Notes under the pieces: model-generated
What the model was told of the DNA's origin: nothing
Seen by the model: only the letters and a program-made list of their open reading frames with translations
The model's database searches: none
In this document: positions 535 through 17,312 of the stretch, piece by piece
Numbering within the stretch: position 1 is the first letter of the stretch
Layout of the letters: each line of letters begins with the position of its first letter
Position numbers and translations under genes: made by a program
DNA from: an uncultured bacterium
GTDB taxonomy: Bacteria > JADJOY01
Length of the DNA stretch: 36,052 nucleotides
Direction of reading: 5' to 3'
NCBI GenBank assembly: GCA_964392195.1
Contig: CAYMQR010000002.1
Span: 1-36,052, forward strand

Positions 535-2373
535 TCACTCGAGCCCCGTCAGCAGGAAGTTGAAGTCGATGTGCAGCAGGTTGCTCCACGGCCCACCCGC
601 GACCGGCCGGGAACGGGTGTCGTCGGGGTCGAGGTAGGGATTCCCGATGCGGCAGTGCCAGTTCACGATCGCGTCCGGCGTGTAACGCAGCGCGAGCCAG
701 TAGCGCCCCGGCGCGAGCGTCGCGCTCTCTCCGAGCGCGCGGAAGCTGAACGGCACCCACGCGAAGTCCTTGCCGAGCGGCACCTCGCCGAGCGGCACGC
801 GGGCGCTCGTGAGTCGCACTCGTTGGCTCGGCAGGCCGCCCGTGTCGTCGAGGATCTCGACCCACAACGCGCCGTCCTCCTCGCCGCCGAACCTCTGCAG
901 CGCGAGCTCGGCCTCCCACAGCCGCAGCGGGCGGCGAAGCTCGAAGCGCTGGGCGTGGACCTCCTTCGAGGTCACGTACTCGTAGGCCTGCTCGGAGAGA
1001 TCGAGGAGGCCGATCTCGGCCAGCTCATCGAACACCGGCGCTTGCGGAGACGGCGGTGGGGGCGGCGGATTGGGCGCTCGGACCTCGGTTGGCGGAGCAG
1101 GCTCGGGGGGCGTGGGAGGCCGTGGCGGTGTCGGCGCGGGGCGCTCGGCGGGCGCCGGAGGAGCAGGCGGGATCTTCGGAACCGGCGTCGGTGCCGGCAT
1201 GGGCGGCGTGCCCCCCGGCACCGCGGGGGGTTGCTCGCGAAGCCGCGGGTCGACCACCAAGAGCGGCTTCGGCCGCGGTGGCGGTGGTGCGACCTCGGCT
1301 CCGCCCACCGCTGGCAGCACCAGTCCCGCGATGATGAAGCTCTCCGGAACCGGGGCGGCGGCGCGCAGCGCGAGCGTGTTGGTCTCGCCCGAGTATTCGG
1401 CCTCGATCGTCTCCTGGAAGCGATTCCTGCGCCCGTAGCCGGTGAAGCGATCCGCGACCTCCGCCGACTCCAGCGCCACCGCCTGCCGGATCAAGTTGGT
1501 GCTGACGAAGAAGTGGCTGCTCTGGGGATCGAACGACACCCAGCCCAGCTCGGGAAGCCGCACCTCGACCCACGCGTGGCGCCCCTGCGCGTTGTCGAAG
1601 GTGAGCGTCCCATCCGTGAGCGGCACCCGCCACGCGTGCTTGAGCGAAAGGCCGTTCACGACCCGGGCCTCGAGCCCGAGGTCGTGAAGCAGCGCCACCG
1701 CCAGGTGCGCGTAGTTCTGGCAGTTACCGCGCCCCTTCTCGAGGGCCTCGGTCGCCGAGTAGCTGGGCGGATTCACCACGTAGTCGACGTGGTCCACGAC
1801 GTAGCGCAGCACCGCGACCAGGGCGTCGATCTGGCCCCGCGCGTCCTGGCCGAGCTTGCGCGCCAGGCCGCGGATGGCACGGTCGTCCTGGTCGAGCATC
1901 CGCGCGTCCTGGAGGTACGGGACGCCCGAGCGCTCGCGCGCCGGGTCGAGCGAGCTCTCGGTGAGCTCACCGAGCGGCTCCAGGTTGGTCGCGAGGCGCG
2001 CGGTGAAGTCGACGGTGCAGACGATGCGGGTCGGCGCCTTACGCCACTCGCGCTTCTCGAAGTGGTTGCCATGGCGATCGCTCTCGGGCGTGACACGGTC
2101 GGGCGGCGGAGTGCACTCGGTGCGGAAGTTCTCGATGCGTTGGCGGTTGACGGGACCCTCGAAGGACTCGTAGCGCGCCGCCTTCGCCGTGAACGGCCCC
2201 GCCATTCCCTCGAGGTCGAAGCGCTGCTCCACGTGGATGCTCACGTCGGCGGCGAGCTCACCCGAGTACCAGAAGCTTCGCGCGTGGGCCGGGGCCTCGA
2301 AGGCCGTCGCGCCGAGCACGAGGGCGAGCACGGCGGGTCGGCCGTGGGTGCGCAGCGAGCGCCGGGATCGCAC
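535..2373 (-). CDS. secreted transglutaminase-like (Cys-His-Asp core) protein with a long Pro-rich linker and a C-terminal domain of unknown function
   Basis: GTG start at 2373 lies 7 nt after the upstream stop (TGAGGCGGCCGTG). Signal peptide is ...AVLALVLGATAFEAPAHA. The TGase core reads GRGNCQNYAHLAVALL...RHAWVEV...VSFDP. A linker of about 90 aa is rich in PPAPxP. This is the last gene of the minus-strand operon. Confidence 0.8.
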   Translation of the reverse strand: MRSRRSLRTHGRPAVLALVLGATAFEAPAHARSFWYSGELAADVSIHVEQRFDLEGMAGPFTAKAARYESFEGPVNRQRIENFRTECTPPPDRVTPESDRHGNHFEKREWRKAPTRIVCTVDFTARLATNLEPLGELTESSLDPARERSGVPYLQDARMLDQDDRAIRGLARKLGQDARGQIDALVAVLRYVVDHVDYVVNPPSYSATEALEKGRGNCQNYAHLAVALLHDLGLEARVVNGLSLKHAWRVPLTDGTLTFDNAQGRHAWVEVRLPELGWVSFDPQSSHFFVSTNLIRQAVALESAEVADRFTGYGRRNRFQETIEAEYSGETNTLALRAAAPVPESFIIAGLVLPAVGGAEVAPPPPRPKPLLVVDPRLREQPPAVPGGTPPMPAPTPVPKIPPAPPAPAERPAPTPPRPPTPPEPAPPTEVRAPNPPPPPPSPQAPVFDELAEIGLLDLSEQAYEYVTSKEVHAQRFELRRPLRLWEAELALQRFGGEEDGALWVEILDDTGGLPSQRVRLTSARVPLGEVPLGKDFAWVPFSFRALGESATLAPGRYWLALRYTPDAIVNWHCRIGNPYLDPDDTRSRPVAGGPWSNLLHIDFNFLLTGLE

Positions 2374-2380
2374 GGCCGCC

Positions 2381-3016
2381 TCACTCGTACCCGGCGCCGC
2401 GCAGGCCGGGGATGGCCCTCAGCGCGGCGAGGCCGTCCTCGAGCCGGGACGCGGGCAGGCTCACCCGGTAGTTCAGTGTGAGCTCGGTGCGTTCCGCGTC
2501 CCACGCGAGCTGCGCGAGTTGGCCGCGGTAAGGCGCGAGTACCGCGGTGACCTCCGGCACGCGCGCCGGATCGGCGACCACCACCTTGAGATCTCGCACG
2601 TAGCCGCCGATCCCGTGGCGCTCCAGCCAGCCGTCGAGAACCAGCACCATCACGATCATCCCGAACGCCGCGCCCGCGGTCTGGTACATCGCGGCACCGA
2701 TCGATGCGCCGATCGCGGCCATGAGCCAGATGCTGGTCGCGGTGGTGAAGCCATGCGCGCGCCCACCCCGGCTCGAGAGCGCGCCGGTGCCCAGGAAGCC
2801 GACGCCGGCGATCAGCCCGCTGGTGAGACCGAGGTCGATCCCCGCGTAGCGGGTCTGGATCTGCACCAGCACGAACAGGCACGAGCCGGTGCACACCAGG
2901 ACGTAGGTGCCGAACGGCACCGCCTTGCGCGCGAACTGCCGCTCCAGCGCGATCAGCGAGCTCGCTCCGAACGCGACGATCAGACGGAACACGATGGCGG
3001 TCCATGCCTCTTCCAT
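2381..3016 (-). CDS. MgtC/SapB family membrane protein
   Basis: ALERQ near the N-terminus and GFTTATSIWLMAAIGASIGAAMY are typical MgtC-family motifs, and the N-terminal half is hydrophobic. ATG 3016 has a GAGGAG Shine-Dalgarno 6 nt upstream. The GTG at 3058 used in the ORF track is an alternative start. Confidence 0.8.
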   Translation of the reverse strand: MEEAWTAIVFRLIVAFGASSLIALERQFARKAVPFGTYVLVCTGSCLFVLVQIQTRYAGIDLGLTSGLIAGVGFLGTGALSSRGGRAHGFTTATSIWLMAAIGASIGAAMYQTAGAAFGMIVMVLVLDGWLERHGIGGYVRDLKVVVADPARVPEVTAVLAPYRGQLAQLAWDAERTELTLNYRVSLPASRLEDGLAALRAIPGLRGAGYE

Positions 3017-3067
3017 GACGGTCTCCTCGAGCGATGCGAGCCGAATCCGGGTTGGCACGCGCCGGCG

Positions 3068-16043: not shown

Positions 16044-16053
16044 GGGCGACGGC
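16031..16053. terminator. 10-bp GC hairpin whose loop is the stop codon of CsgG-like paralog 2; candidate bidirectional terminator between convergent genes
   Basis: GCCGTCGCCC-TGA-GGGCGACGGC. There is no U-tract on either side. Confidence 0.4.
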
Positions 16054-16088
16054 CCGGATCGCGGTGCGCCCGGCGTCATGGCGCGTCC

Positions 16089-17312
16089 TCACAGGAAGAA
16101 CGCGCGCATGCCGAGGAACACCGCGTTCGTGCTGTAGTTGTCGATCTCGAACCGGGTGCGGTAGCCGAGGTTGAGCACGAAGCTGCGCGTCACGGCGTAG
16201 TCGCCGGAGACGAGCAGCGTGGTGAACGAGCCGACGTCCTCGAGGTCGCTGGTGTCGCCCGGCTTGAGCGCCGTGGTGCGGTAGGCCTGGAGGTTGAACG
16301 CGAACGACTCGAACAACGGCACGCCTACGCCGCCGCCGTACGCCACCGAAACCACGTAGTCGGTCTTGCCGTCCGGCCGATCGATGTCGCTCAGCACTCC
16401 CTGCCCCACCACGCCGAGCGACAGGATCGCGGGGCCGAGAACGAAGTGAGCCCCGCTCAACAGCCCGCCGCCGTAGAGGAAGGCATCGTCGGGCGTCGAG
16501 TCGACCCAGTCGACGTTGCCGTAGAGGCCGATCAGGAAGTAGTCGCCGAGGTCCCAACGCCAACCGAGCTTGCCGCGCGCGGTGTTCTCGCAGGTCACGT
16601 CGTCGCCGTCGATCCGCGAGTAGGCGCCGTCGGCGAAGAAGGTGCTGCCGTCGCTGGTGCTCGAGTAGCCGAGCGAGATCTGGTAGGTGCTGCCGTCGAT
16701 CGGGTCGGCCTCCCAGAAGTCGGCGGTCACGTTGGCGTCGACGGCGCTGAACCTGAGCACGGTCTTCTCGCCGCTCACCGCGGCGCCCGGCGGCGCCTCC
16801 TCGGCGGGTGCGCCGGCGCCCGTGGCACCCGACTCTGCGCCGGCCCCGCCAGCCGCGGCGTTCGCCGTCGAGGTGGCCGCGCCGCCGGCCTGCGGCAGCA
16901 GCGACTCCGGCACGGCGCGCACGACCACGTGATCGCTGAACACCGAGACCACGTTCTCCTGCGCGACGTCACCCGTGCTGCCCGCCCCGGCGACACCGGT
17001 GCCGGCGCCGCCGCCGAGGCACACCCCGCCGACCGCGTCCACCGCGAGCGGGTAGCAGTCGCCGCGCGTGCCGCAGCCCGCGAATTCGCCGAGGCCCGTG
17101 CCGCGATCGGTGATGTAGCCGGCCGCCGCGGACGCGCACGACGATTGGAAGTCGTAGTACTCGAAGCACTCCTGGAGCTGCGCCGTCGTGGGGTCCGGGA
17201 TGGTGCAGCCGATCGGCACTTGCGCGTGCGCAGAGCCCCACAACAGCGCGGTCGAGGCGACCGCGCAAGCGCACGTCCACAACCGTCGAAGCCACGTCTT
17301 CGATCGCTTCAT
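16089..17312 (-). CDS. outer-membrane beta-barrel protein with a Cys-rich N-terminal module and an Ala/Gly-rich linker
   Basis: ATG 17312 is preceded by GGGAGGAG. Signal peptide is MKRSKTWLRRLWTCACAVASTALLWGSAHA. About 70 aa carry 6 Cys, followed by low-complexity AGGA. The C-terminal ~230 aa has alternating hydrophobic/aromatic strands ending ...NAVFLGMRAFFL. The extra 162 aa in ORF 16089..17798 is discarded. Confidence 0.7.
   Translation of the reverse strand: MKRSKTWLRRLWTCACAVASTALLWGSAHAQVPIGCTIPDPTTAQLQECFEYYDFQSSCASAAAGYITDRGTGLGEFAGCGTRGDCYPLAVDAVGGVCLGGGAGTGVAGAGSTGDVAQENVVSVFSDHVVVRAVPESLLPQAGGAATSTANAAAGGAGAESGATGAGAPAEEAPPGAAVSGEKTVLRFSAVDANVTADFWEADPIDGSTYQISLGYSSTSDGSTFFADGAYSRIDGDDVTCENTARGKLGWRWDLGDYFLIGLYGNVDWVDSTPDDAFLYGGGLLSGAHFVLGPAILSLGVVGQGVLSDIDRPDGKTDYVVSVAYGGGVGVPLFESFAFNLQAYRTTALKPGDTSDLEDVGSFTTLLVSGDYAVTRSFVLNLGYRTRFEIDNYSTNAVFLGMRAFFL

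What the first reader, a model, noticed from the sequence alone, without database searches (positions are those of the whole stretch)
535..17312. Candidate undescribed envelope-spanning lipoprotein system built around a CsgG-like/DUF799/LPP20/FlgT-like core
Seen in sequence: eleven adjacent genes, ten with signal peptides or lipoboxes plus the polytopic membrane protein MgtC, form one divergent/convergent unit.
- The 8-gene minus-strand operon is extremely compact: ATGA overlaps at 5071-5074 and 8340-8343, a GTGA overlap at 9596-9599, 7-9 nt gaps at 2373/2381 and 3058/3068, and 57 and 72 nt gaps elsewhere.
- That operon encodes a DUF799-like lipoprotein, an LPP20-like protein, a TPR lipoprotein and a FlgT-like lipoprotein.
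- Two CsgG-like lipoproteins are encoded divergently, and an OM beta-barrel gene is convergent on them.

Established knowledge: small CsgG-like + DUF799 (GNA1162-type) + LPP20/DUF4810 lipoprotein clusters are widespread, and their function is unknown. CsgG forms an OM secretion channel in curli. FlgT/LPP20-type proteins build periplasmic rings. SLT enzymes typically open peptidoglycan for trans-envelope machines.

What stands out is that the minimal module here is expanded. It gains SLH peptidoglycan-polymer anchors, a beta-helix/FN3 giant, a PTP+NPP phosphoesterase, a large SLT enzyme, MgtC and a transglutaminase-like protein. No curli (CsgA/B/E/F) or flagellar genes are present.

Inference: this is a dedicated machine that assembles, anchors or remodels a surface or periplasmic polymer. 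It is not a set of unrelated genes.
Basis: partly seen in the sequence, partly recalled or inferred. Interest (0 to 1): 0.85.

Follow-up and report, generated by a model that had tools for sequence, protein, structure and literature searches.

The report
Conserved outer-membrane lipoprotein scaffold gene cluster
Eleven neighbouring genes for secreted and lipid-anchored envelope proteins, several related to the ring proteins that brace some flagellar motors, sit here with no flagellar genes nearby and recur in shuffled order in distant bacteria, so they form a real but uncharacterised cell-envelope system.

Summary
Most domain calls hold. Transglutaminase, MgtC, PTP+SLH+NPP, TPR+SLH, GNA1162/DUF799+beta-helix, SLT (catalytic motifs intact) and a CsgG-like fold are supported. 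FlgT-like and LPP20/FlgP-like are supported by family profiles and a structure model. FN3 and the outer-membrane barrel stay unproven.

The genes are not random neighbours. The same set recurs in different orders in relatives and in Syntrophales-type MAGs.

The core differs from the one proposed. It is not CsgG+DUF799+DUF4810. The widely conserved unit is a FlgT-like protein with a CsgG/LpoB-like lipoprotein and a FlgP-like/Tp0624 D1-D2-like protein. No flagellar gene was detected in about 1 Mb of related loci.

The window merges two modules that lie on separate contigs in a related genome:
- A: CsgG-like pair | FlgP-like, FlgT-like, PTP-SLH-NPP, plus the putative barrel.
- B: DUF799-beta-helix, transglutaminase, FlgT-like, MgtC.

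The CsgG-like proteins have short, charged segments where CsgG has its membrane hairpins, so a curli-type channel is not supported.

Best reading: an OM-anchored, wall-tethered periplasmic scaffold that carries wall-remodelling enzymes. The function is inferred, not shown.

The parts
535..2373 (-). g1: secreted transglutaminase-like (papain-fold) protein, 612 aa. It has a Pro-rich linker and a conserved C-terminal domain.
   Evidence: Pfam Transglut_core 1.5e-22. Cys/His/Asp motifs GNCQNY 216, HAWVE 266 and FDP 281. Homologues are linked to g8/g5-like/MgtC genes in L011, L092 and L098.
2381..3058 (-). g2: MgtC-family inner-membrane protein. The start may instead be the ATG at 3016.
   Evidence: Pfam MgtC 5e-22. 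Homologues of 58-66% identity lie next to FlgT-like, g8-like and Tgase genes in L011, L092 and L098.
3068..5074 (-). g3: membrane-anchored or secreted lytic transglycosylase, 668 aa. The SLT domain is C-terminal; the N-terminal ~500 aa are unassigned.
   Evidence: Pfam SLT 5e-4, just below the gathering score. Motifs ESRG 543, GPFQ 558 and AYNQG 612 are intact. A 46% homologue lies next to a g5-like gene in L004.
5071..8343 (-). g4: secreted 1090-aa protein with a DSP-type phosphatase domain, SLH repeats, an NPP-type phosphodiesterase domain and a C-terminal Ig-like domain.
   Evidence: Pfam PTP-NADK 1.1e-19, SLH 4.4e-9 and Phosphodiest 3e-26. HCX5RT at 125, nucleophile motif PADTIPNHTTIFTG at 558, DHGQ at 773. 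Big_7 0.0045. Orthologues in L002 and L003.
8340..9599 (-). g5: FlgT-like three-domain lipoprotein, 419 aa. It is the common denominator of nearly all related loci; only the L005-8 set lacks it.
   Evidence: FlgT_N 1.5e-4. 28 of 36 family members hit FlgT_N. AF2 model pLDDT 87. Top PDB fold hits are FlgT 3w1e at 5.7e-10 and 8z5n at 1.6e-9 over about 370 columns; the middle domain matches GNA1162 and CsgG. The family has 2580 representatives.
9596..10774 (-). g6: lipoprotein with TPR repeats and a C-terminal SLH domain. It is a candidate tether between the outer membrane and a wall polymer.
   Evidence: Pfam SLH 1e-11 and TPR. Lipobox. Full-length homologues with lipoboxes lie near g8/g7-like genes in L093-L096, and between g7-like and g5-like genes in L075.
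10832..11803 (-). g7: secreted two-domain protein. The N-terminal domain is FlgP/LPP20-type, followed by a Pro-rich linker and a C-terminal domain like Tp0624 D2.
   Evidence: The family profile hits Tp0624 (5jir) at 7e-19 over both domains, C. jejuni FlgP (9hmf_C) at 9.5e-17 and Vibrio FlgP at 2.5e-7. LPP20 Pfam hits 5 of 22 members. For the single sequence LPP20 is only 0.011.
11876..14659 (-). g8: 927-aa lipoprotein with an N-terminal GNA1162/DUF799 domain, Ig/FN3-like spacers (weak) and two right-handed beta-helix modules.
   Evidence: Pfam GNA1162-like 1.8e-13, Beta_helix 4.7e-22 and NosD 5.6e-8. PDB 4hrv 1.5e-7. The same architecture is conserved in 35 clusters. fn3 only 0.13.
14658..15299 (+). 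g9: CsgG-like lipoprotein, paralogue of g10, 213 aa.
   Evidence: BLASTP against g10 gives 28% identity and 3e-17. Canonical lipobox LIAGC. No Pfam hit of its own. The g9-g10 pair is conserved in L001-L008.
15306..16043 (+). g10: CsgG-like lipoprotein, 245 aa.
   Evidence: Pfam CsgG 5.6e-5, 23.0 bits against a cutoff of 20.8. AF2 model pLDDT 70. Top PDB fold hits are CsgG 4uv2 at 4e-8 (TM about 0.45), then GNA1162, FlgT, PelC and LptE.
16089..17312 (-). g11: secreted protein with a Cys-rich N-terminal part and a C-terminal ~225 aa rich in amphipathic beta-strand patterns. It is a possible small outer-membrane barrel.
   Evidence: Conserved next to g9-g10 in L001 and L002 and nearby in L004. 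No Pfam, NCBIfam or PDB match. Alternating-hydrophobicity segments.
17777..19057 (+). g12: calcineurin-like phosphoesterase with an N-terminal signal or lipobox-like sequence. It is a conserved flank and possibly part of module A.
   Evidence: Pfam Metallophos 7.5e-8. A 75% orthologue lies next to the g11 orthologue in L002.
14657..14660 (.). CATG shared by the divergent start codons of g8 and g9, leaving no intergenic DNA.
   Evidence: Sequence. The same arrangement occurs in L003.

Best explanation
The locus encodes an outer-membrane-anchored periplasmic scaffold with attached wall-remodelling enzymes.

Shown:
- Its central proteins are non-flagellar relatives of ring-forming envelope proteins. 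These are a FlgT-like three-domain lipoprotein (g5), a FlgP/LPP20-like protein that also matches Tp0624 D1-D2 (g7), and four copies of the CsgG/GNA1162-type alpha/beta lipoprotein fold (g9, g10, the N-terminus of g8 and the middle domain of g5).
- The gene set is co-conserved in shuffled order across lineages.
- The window fuses two modules that are separate in a relative.

Inferred:
- By analogy with the Vibrio H-ring, where FlgT, FlgP and FlgO form concentric lipid-anchored rings under the outer membrane, these proteins oligomerise beneath the outer membrane.
- The lipoprotein g6 (TPR+SLH) and the SLH-bearing enzyme g4 fix the assembly to a peptidoglycan-linked polymer.
- The lytic transglycosylase g3 and the papain-fold transglutaminase-like g1 open or cross-link the wall locally.
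- The phosphatase/phosphodiesterase g4 and the beta-helix modules of g8 act on a phosphodiester-linked wall glycan.
- MgtC (g2) is the inner-membrane partner, and g11 is a possible outer-membrane partner.
For: Gene layout and export signals.

Domain identities.

Fold and profile evidence:
- The g5 model matches FlgT full length.
- The g7 family profile matches FlgP and Tp0624.
- The g10 model matches CsgG, GNA1162, FlgT, PelC and LptE folds.
- The alignment to C. jejuni FlgP runs through the long segment after the helix with only one 3-residue gap, outside that segment. That is where PMC12222027 places the ring-forming hairpin.

Co-conservation:
- L003 has the same order as the window.
- L002 has g12 g11 g10 g9 | g7 g5 g4.
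- L092, from the same genome, has MgtC-g8-Tgase-FlgT-like.
- L011 and L098 have g8-Tgase-FlgT-like-MgtC.
- L004 has SLT-g5-Tgase | g9 g10 ... g11.
- Syntrophales-type L093-96 have FlgT-like, TPR-CsgG, fn3, g8, g7, ..., g6.
- Sources.

Census of 32 dereplicated loci with context: 22 have a CsgG/LpoB-like gene, 12 have a g7-like gene and 9 have both, within 4 same-strand genes of the FlgT-like gene (Pfam on cluster representatives).

No rod, hook or L/P-ring genes were detected in the window plus 98 loci, 1.04 Mb in total.

Catalytic and SLH motifs are intact. g6-like proteins keep a lipobox plus SLH across phyla.

H-ring architecture comes from bioRxiv 10.64898/2025.12.02.691832.
Against: - No oligomer prediction or experiment supports ring formation.
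- Global TM-scores to FlgT (0.26-0.35) and CsgG (about 0.45) are low, although E-values and coverage are good.
- The SLH ligand (a pyruvylated wall polymer, and csaB) is not shown for this organism, whose taxonomy is unknown.
- The roles of MgtC, g11 and the phosphoesterases are guesses.
- g7 lacks a lipobox, unlike FlgP.
- Accessory genes vary widely between loci: CHASE2 cyclase, FGE-sulfatase fusions, DUF2807. The triad may therefore be a generic adaptor serving different functions.
Confidence: 0.42

Rival explanations
1. The cluster is the outer-membrane and periplasmic half of an exopolysaccharide or surface-polymer export and modification pathway, like the Pel, alginate and PNAG systems. 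A PelC/GNA1162-like lipoprotein ring (g8 N-terminus, g9, g10) would funnel the polymer to a barrel (g11). A TPR protein (g6) would scaffold the complex, and beta-helix and phosphoesterase enzymes would modify the polymer.
For: - The g10 model also matches PelC dodecamer chains.
- g8 carries CASH-type beta-helix modules.
- A TPR lipoprotein and a possible barrel are present.
- A sugar-nucleotide epimerase lies directly upstream of the cluster in L093 and upstream with one intervening gene in L095.
- The A. baumannii CsgG-like cluster was proposed to anchor PNAG.
Against: - No glycosyltransferase, synthase, flippase or c-di-GMP receptor is found in the 36 kb window.
- None appears among the most frequent operon-linked neighbour families, of which only the top 25 of 132 could be seen.
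- The barrel is unverified.
- The epimerase sits in a housekeeping run (pgk, truA), so the linkage may be incidental.
Confidence: 0.2
2. The cluster is an outer-membrane-based regulator of peptidoglycan enzymes rather than a structural assembly. LpoB-like, CsgG-like and TPR lipoproteins would act as adaptors, as LpoB does for PBP1B or NlpI for hydrolases. They would control the SLT and transglutaminase-like enzymes encoded in the cluster.
For: - Many partners of FlgT-like genes are bona fide LpoB-family proteins (3.4e-34).
- DUF1425/YcfL-type neighbours occur in related loci.
- The H. pylori Lpp20 operon contains an LpoB homologue, and HP0018 was linked to MltD and AmiA (PMC11394524).
- An SLT and a papain-fold enzyme are encoded in the locus.
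Against: - g9 and g10 do not hit LpoB.
- No PBP is encoded nearby.
- This reading does not explain the FlgT/FlgP-type ring proteins, SLH, the phosphoesterases, the beta-helix modules or MgtC.
Confidence: 0.15
3. The proteins are true flagellar motor accessories (an H-ring or basal-disk equivalent) of a flagellated host, encoded away from the main flagellar clusters.
For: The closest solved relatives of g5 and g7 are flagellar FlgT and FlgP.
Against: - No flagellar rod, hook or L/P-ring gene was detected within 10 kb of the anchor in the window or in 98 related loci.
- MotX/MotY-type partners were not seen in any scanned protein, though no dedicated search was run.
- The partners are enzymes, SLH proteins and MgtC.
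Confidence: 0.06
4. The genes are unrelated envelope genes that happen to be neighbours.
For: - Accessory content differs between loci.
- Several single-sequence domain hits are weak.
Against: - The same families recur together in at least five different gene orders, at 30-80% identity and across lineages.
- Translational coupling by 4-nt overlaps is present.
Confidence: 0.02

Closest known systems
Vibrio flagellar H-ring (FlgT, FlgP, FlgO) and Campylobacter basal disk (FlgP)
   Same: - g5 has the three-domain FlgT architecture.
- g7 has the FlgP-type SHS2-like domain, including the long post-helix segment.
- The partners are lipid-anchored alpha/beta lipoproteins.
- All are exported to the periplasm or outer membrane (literature).
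   Different: - No flagellar genes are nearby.
- There is no MotX/MotY.
- g7 has an extra Tp0624-D2-like domain and no lipobox.
- The partners are CsgG-like; no FlgO relationship was found by the searches run.
- The cluster is joined to SLH proteins, enzymes and MgtC.
CsgG-like / DUF4810 / GNA1162 (DUF799) three-lipoprotein cluster of Acinetobacter, Neisseria and Vibrio (function unknown)
   Same: - CsgG-like lipoproteins lie next to a GNA1162-domain lipoprotein.
- No curli genes are present.
   Different: - There is no DUF4810 protein.
- The GNA1162 domain is fused to about 700 aa of beta-helix.
- The CsgG-like genes are a divergent paralogue pair.
- FlgT-like and FlgP-like partners are present.
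Curli secretion channel CsgG
   Same: - Lipoprotein.
- Best fold match for g10.
- Marginal Pfam membership for g10.
   Different: - The segments at the two transmembrane-hairpin positions are about 6 and about 7-11 residues shorter and rich in charged residues.
- The proteins are shorter than CsgG, and there is no CsgA/B/E/F.
Treponema pallidum Tp0624 (D1-D2 tandem + OmpA-like domain)
   Same: The g7 family aligns to D1 and D2 at 7e-19. In both cases the tandem is coupled to a wall-binding module.
   Different: The wall-binding module here is SLH on separate proteins (g6, g4), not a fused OmpA-like domain.
Helicobacter pylori Lpp20 operon (Lpp20, LpoB-like HP1457, HP1454)
   Same: An LPP20-family protein is encoded with an LpoB/CsgG-superfamily lipoprotein. 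The role is uncharacterised and envelope-related.
   Different: The H. pylori operon is much smaller. No FlgT-like three-domain protein was detected by sequence, and it has no enzymes or SLH.
Pel/alginate/PNAG outer-membrane export modules (PelC ring, TPR, porin, beta-helix enzymes)
   Same: Similar part types are present: a ring-type lipoprotein fold, a TPR protein, a possible barrel and beta-helix modules.
   Different: No synthase or c-di-GMP receptor is present. The similarity is at fold or part-type level only.

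Membership tests
CsgG curli channel (PF03783) | Sequence match to the CsgG family model above the curated threshold | tested here: inconclusive
   g10 scores 23.0 bits against a cutoff of 20.8 (E 5.6e-5). g9 has no hit.
CsgG curli channel (PF03783) | CsgG alpha/beta fold on an N-terminal lipid anchor | tested here: met
   Lipoboxes are present. The g10 model's top fold hits are CsgG 4uv2/4uv3 at E 4e-8 to 1e-6 with TM about 0.4-0.5.
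CsgG curli channel (PF03783) | Two amphipathic transmembrane beta-hairpins per subunit that build the 36-strand pore | tested here: not met
   Aligned with E. coli CsgG, the g9/g10 segments at both hairpin positions are shorter and charged, for example TGREERAAGISGESHG and DDDVRTLFSHSKRDF. This is a sequence-level test only.
CsgG curli channel (PF03783) | Curli partners CsgA/B/E/F | tested here: not met
   No such family appears in any window protein scanned.
FlgT (Vibrio H-ring protein) | FlgT_N domain | tested here: inconclusive
   g5 alone scores 22.7 bits against a cutoff of 28.8. At family level 28 of 36 members hit FlgT_N, best 2.4e-10, and the profile hits FlgT chains at 5.6e-4.
FlgT (Vibrio H-ring protein) | Three-domain N-M-C architecture of about 380 aa | tested here: met
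   The AF2 model has pLDDT 87. The top hits 3w1e and 8z5n FlgT align over about 370 columns at E 6e-10 and 2e-9. The global TM is low, 0.26-0.35.
FlgT (Vibrio H-ring protein) | Encoded with, and acting on, the flagellar motor (flgOP, LP-ring, MotXY) | tested here: not met
   No FlgB/C/E/F/G/H/I/K homologue was detected in the window plus 98 loci.
FlgP / LPP20 family | SHS2-like LPP20/FlgP domain | tested here: met
   The g7 family profile hits C. jejuni FlgP at 9.5e-17 and Vibrio FlgP at 2.5e-7 to 1.6e-5. The single sequence hits LPP20 only at 0.011.
FlgP / LPP20 family | Ring-forming hairpin insert between the helix and the second strand | tested here: inconclusive
   The alignment to FlgP has no gap in that segment. 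The insert's position is taken from PMC12222027. No structure or oligomer model was made for g7.
FlgP / LPP20 family | N-terminal lipid anchor | tested here: not met
   g7 has a signal peptide without a lipobox. Many homologues do show a Cys after the signal (alignment).
GNA1162/DUF799 - DUF4810 - CsgG-like lipoprotein cluster | GNA1162-like domain lipoprotein | tested here: met
   The g8 N-terminus scores Pfam 1.8e-13 and PDB 4hrv 1.5e-7.
GNA1162/DUF799 - DUF4810 - CsgG-like lipoprotein cluster | DUF4810 partner | tested here: not met
   No DUF4810 hit appears in any of the cluster proteins.
SLH-mediated wall attachment | SLH domain with a TRAE-type motif | tested here: met
   g6 scores 1e-11 and g4 scores 4.4e-9, both above cutoff. 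The motifs TKAE, SRAE and TGAE are visible. The role of the motif is from general knowledge.
SLH-mediated wall attachment | Pyruvylated wall polymer and CsaB in the host | not testable with these tools
   Only a 36 kb contig is available. No csaB-like gene was found in it.
Synthase-dependent exopolysaccharide export (Pel/Alg/Pga) | Linked glycosyltransferase/synthase and outer-membrane porin | tested here: not met
   No GT or synthase family is in the window. The g11 barrel is unverified.
Family 1 lytic transglycosylase (SLT) | ES, GLMQ-like and AYNxG motifs | tested here: met
   ESRG 543, GPFQ 558 and AYNQG 612 are present. The Pfam score is 20.0 against a cutoff of 21.3.

The most novel reading that the evidence does not exclude
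Non-flagellar FlgT-like + FlgP-like + CsgG/LpoB-like triads build free-standing, lipid-anchored rings or discs under the outer membrane. This would be a widespread envelope structure from which the flagellar H-ring and basal disk were later co-opted. In this lineage it is stapled to the wall through SLH proteins and equipped with its own wall-cutting and phosphodiester-cleaving enzymes.
Probability: 0.25. Interest if true: 0.85.

Novelty: new variant of a known kind. Interest (0 to 1): 0.62.

Why it matters
FlgT and FlgP are known only as flagellar motor braces. CsgG-like/GNA1162 lipoprotein clusters are widespread but have no known function.

This locus and its relatives link the two. A large family of FlgT-like proteins (2580 representatives at 50% clustering) is habitually encoded with CsgG/LpoB-like and FlgP-like partners, away from any detected flagellar genes.

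Three things follow:
- It gives a concrete candidate for the pre-flagellar origin of the H-ring and basal disk.
- It offers a testable function for the orphan lipoprotein clusters: an outer-membrane-to-wall scaffold that carries enzymes.
- It suggests a new SLH-based tether (lipoprotein-TPR-SLH) in lineages annotated as deltaproteobacterial or Syntrophales.

Tried and rejected
- Alignment-based scans of genome contigs failed twice because no stretch was conserved enough.
- Looking up the window's own g5 product found nothing on record. The g10 look-up gave only a 2 kb contig.
- Sequence searches of the PDB with g10, the g9/g10 profile and the g11 profile gave nothing meaningful.
- NCBIfam added only weak hints: LipL46, MXYO-CTERM family, TPR lipoproteins.
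- The host taxonomy could not be established. Cluster names say only 'bacterium' or 'Deltaproteobacteria bacterium'.
- My first two ORF callers mis-handled the high-GC overlaps and were replaced.
- The PA1624 paper turned out to be irrelevant.
- Promoter and terminator scans, Rfam and tRNA scans were uninformative.
- I considered and rejected a true CsgG pore, a flagellar locus and a canonical DUF4810 cluster.

Full report
**Observation.**
The window is 72% GC, so raw ORF lists are noisy.
- Eight minus-strand genes, g1-g8, run from 535 to 14659.
- A divergent plus-strand pair, g9 (14658-15299) and g10 (15306-16043), follows.
- A convergent gene, g11, lies at 16089-17312.

All quoted junctions are exact. 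There is ATGA at 5071-5074 and at 8340-8343, GTGA at 9596-9599, and gaps of 7, 9, 57 and 72 nt. A PROSITE-type lipobox is present in g5, g6, g8, g9 and g10. Signal-peptide-like N-termini are present in g1, g4, g7 and g11, and g3 has an N-terminal anchor.

Two details were missed. The g2 start is ambiguous, because homologues align only from residue 15. The g8 and g9 start codons share one CATG, so no intergenic DNA remains, and this is also true in relative L003.

**Domain identities.**
Strong Pfam matches:

| Gene | Family | E-value |
|---|---|---|
| g1 | Transglut_core | 1.5e-22 |
| g2 | MgtC | 5e-22 |
| g4 | DSP-type PTP | 1e-19 |
| g4 | SLH | 4e-9 |
| g4 | Phosphodiest | 3e-26 |
| g6 | SLH (plus TPR) | 1e-11 |
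| g8 | GNA1162-like | 1.8e-13 |
| g8 | Beta_helix | 4.7e-22 |

The g8 N-terminus also matches the GNA1162 crystal structure at 1.5e-7.

Weak single-sequence matches:
- SLT in g3: 5e-4.
- FlgT_N in g5: 1.5e-4.
- CsgG in g10: 23 bits against a cutoff of 20.8.
- LPP20 in g7: 0.011.
- g9 and g11: nothing.

Catalytic motifs are intact. g4 has HCX5RT and the NPP nucleophile motif. g3 has ES, GPFQ and AYNQG. g1 has Cys, His and Asp. FN3 in g8 is not established (E 0.13).

**Strengthening the weak calls.**
- *g9 and g10.* They are paralogues (28% identity, 3e-17). An AlphaFold2 model of g10 (pLDDT 70) has CsgG as its best PDB fold match (4e-8, TM about 0.45). GNA1162, FlgT, PelC, CT253 and LptE follow. 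It therefore belongs to the broad CsgG/GNA1162-type lipoprotein fold.
- *The CsgG pore.* I aligned g9 and g10 with genuine E. coli CsgG. Their segments at both transmembrane-hairpin positions are shorter and rich in charged residues. A curli-type pore is not supported.
- *g5.* It belongs to a large family of about 390-aa proteins. There are 2580 representatives at E<=1e-3 and 449 at <=1e-10, and 28 of 36 sampled members hit FlgT_N. A confident model (pLDDT 87) has Vibrio FlgT as its two best PDB matches over about 370 columns. Its middle domain matches GNA1162 and CsgG.
- *g7.* A profile of the g7 family hits Treponema Tp0624 across both of its uncharacterised domains D1-D2 (7e-19). It also hits C. 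jejuni FlgP (9.5e-17) and Vibrio FlgP.

So 'FlgT-like' and 'LPP20-like' are right at family level. g7 is more precisely a FlgP-type domain plus a Tp0624-D2-type domain.

**Is it a unit?**
Close relatives and more distant lineages show the same families in different orders.
- L003 repeats the window order.
- L002 is a 70-80% relative. It has g12-g11-g10-g9 | g7-g5-g4 followed directly by the orthologue of the window's left flank. It lacks g8, g6 and g3-g1 at that locus.
- L092 is another contig of the same genome. It carries MgtC, g8-like, transglutaminase and a weak FlgT-like gene.
- L011 and L098 show the same four genes as a stand-alone operon, on a 391 kb contig in the case of L098.
- L004 has SLT, g5 and transglutaminase divergent from g9-g10, with g11 nearby.
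- Syntrophales-type MAGs (GC 56-64%) have FlgT-like, a TPR-CsgG fusion and an fn3 protein. These are followed by g8-like (36-37%) and g7-like (38-54%). After mutL and miaA comes a full-length g6-like lipoprotein with SLH.

The window is therefore a fusion of two conserved modules, A and B, each built around a FlgT-like protein.

**What is the conserved core?**
A metagenome scan anchored on the g5 family returned 80 loci. I called ORFs and clustered them by BLAST.
- Of the 85 loci holding a FlgT-like gene, 45 carry an operon-linked CsgG/LpoB-family gene. Pfam confirmed the family on cluster representatives. 30 carry a g7-like gene directly adjacent.
- After dereplication, 32 loci had at least two genes on each side. 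Of these, 22 have the CsgG/LpoB-like partner, 12 have the g7-like partner and 9 have both.
- With looser cluster definitions the counts are 23, 15 and 12.

Accessory genes vary. They include TPR proteins, DUF2807, CsgG-FGE-sulfatase fusions, beta-helix proteins, DUF1425 and CHASE2 adenylate cyclases. No E. coli-type rod, hook or L/P-ring homologue was detected anywhere in the window plus 98 loci, 1.04 Mb in total.

The core is thus FlgT-like + CsgG/LpoB-like + FlgP-like, and it is non-flagellar by context. It is not the CsgG + DUF799 + DUF4810 trio; no DUF4810 was found.

**Mechanism (inferred).**
[quoted passage not shown] FlgP, Lpp20 and FlgT_N share an SHS2-like fold. Ring formation correlates with an insert after the helix. 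The g7 family aligns through that segment without a gap. By analogy I propose the following.
- g5, g7, g9, g10 and the g8 N-terminus oligomerise beneath the outer membrane.
- g6 is a direct tether from the outer membrane to a wall polymer. It combines a lipid anchor, TPR repeats and SLH, and this architecture is conserved across phyla.
- g4 is an SLH-positioned phosphatase/phosphodiesterase that could cut phosphodiester-linked wall glycans.
- g3 and g1 open or cross-link peptidoglycan.
- MgtC is the inner-membrane partner. Its linkage is robust, but its role is unknown.

Tp0624 offers a parallel, with the same D1-D2 tandem fused to a wall-binding OmpA-like domain.

I rate the existence of a real co-conserved envelope system at about 0.9 and this specific mechanism at about 0.4. 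The rivals are polymer export, regulation of wall enzymes and a remote flagellar accessory. They are listed with their tests.

**Novelty.**
Full-text searches found only three kinds of related work:
- the flagellar H-ring and basal-disk literature;
- an A. baumannii preprint that notes the widespread CsgG-like/GNA1162 cluster of unknown role;
- H. pylori envelope-lipoprotein papers.

None describes this system. Within the limits of that library, the system is an uncharacterised variant of known ring-forming lipoprotein kits.

Noticed in passing
window 14657-14660; L003 1353-1356: The divergent genes g8 and g9 start from one shared CATG, so there is no intergenic DNA. This is conserved in an ~85%-identical relative. 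It implies leaderless mRNAs or promoters embedded in the opposite coding region. In L002, where g8 is absent, a 175-nt spacer separates g9 from g7.
   Followed up: partly
window 1-381 (+) and 17777-19057 (+): Calcineurin-like phosphoesterase-type genes flank the cluster on both sides. Only g12 has a Pfam Metallophos hit; the left fragment is so named through its L002 orthologue. Both flanks are conserved in L002 (81% and 75%), so the cluster's insertion site is stable while g8, g6 and g3-g1 come and go.
   Followed up: partly
L082 12114-14228; L089 3190-5034; L065: In some low-GC loci the FlgT-like/FlgP-like/CsgG-like genes are followed by a CHASE2-sensor adenylate/guanylate cyclase. This hints that the scaffold can be coupled to signalling.
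   Followed up: no
L033 12519-13832 (also L038, L040); L092 4597-5622: A CsgG- or FlgO-like N-terminus is fused to an FGE-sulfatase domain next to FlgT-like genes. This is the fold family of the gliding/T9SS ring lipoproteins GldK/PorK, a comparison drawn from memory.
   Followed up: no
L005-L008 (e.g. L005 348-4490): A g9/g10-like paralogue pair (30-33% identity) sits behind a Peptidase_C14 (caspase-like) + DUF3280 protein, with no FlgT-like gene. The CsgG-like pair is therefore itself a mobile two-gene module.
   Followed up: partly
window g1 residues 402-441 and g7 residues 156-195: There are extreme proline-rich linkers, with 23 and 21 prolines in 40 residues. They separate the domains of the transglutaminase-like protein and of the FlgP-like protein and are probably rigid periplasmic spacers.
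   Followed up: no
window 19230-32286: The rest of the window encodes a CarboxypepD_reg protein, a beta-propeller/phosphoesterase protein, a HEAT-repeat protein, Dus, a HlyD-MacB/FtsX efflux set and an alpha/beta hydrolase. None recurs in the related loci. No tRNA or Rfam family is present in the whole window.
   Followed up: partly
literature, bioRxiv 10.1101/2020.04.01.020958: A survey of diversity-generating retroelement targets mentions PF05643 (GNA1162-like). I did not read it to see whether such lipoproteins are hypermutation targets.
   Followed up: no
L004 2772-3789: The g5-like gene is split across two frames in this 1.9x-coverage long-read contig. This is probably an assembly frameshift rather than a pseudogene.
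   Followed up: no
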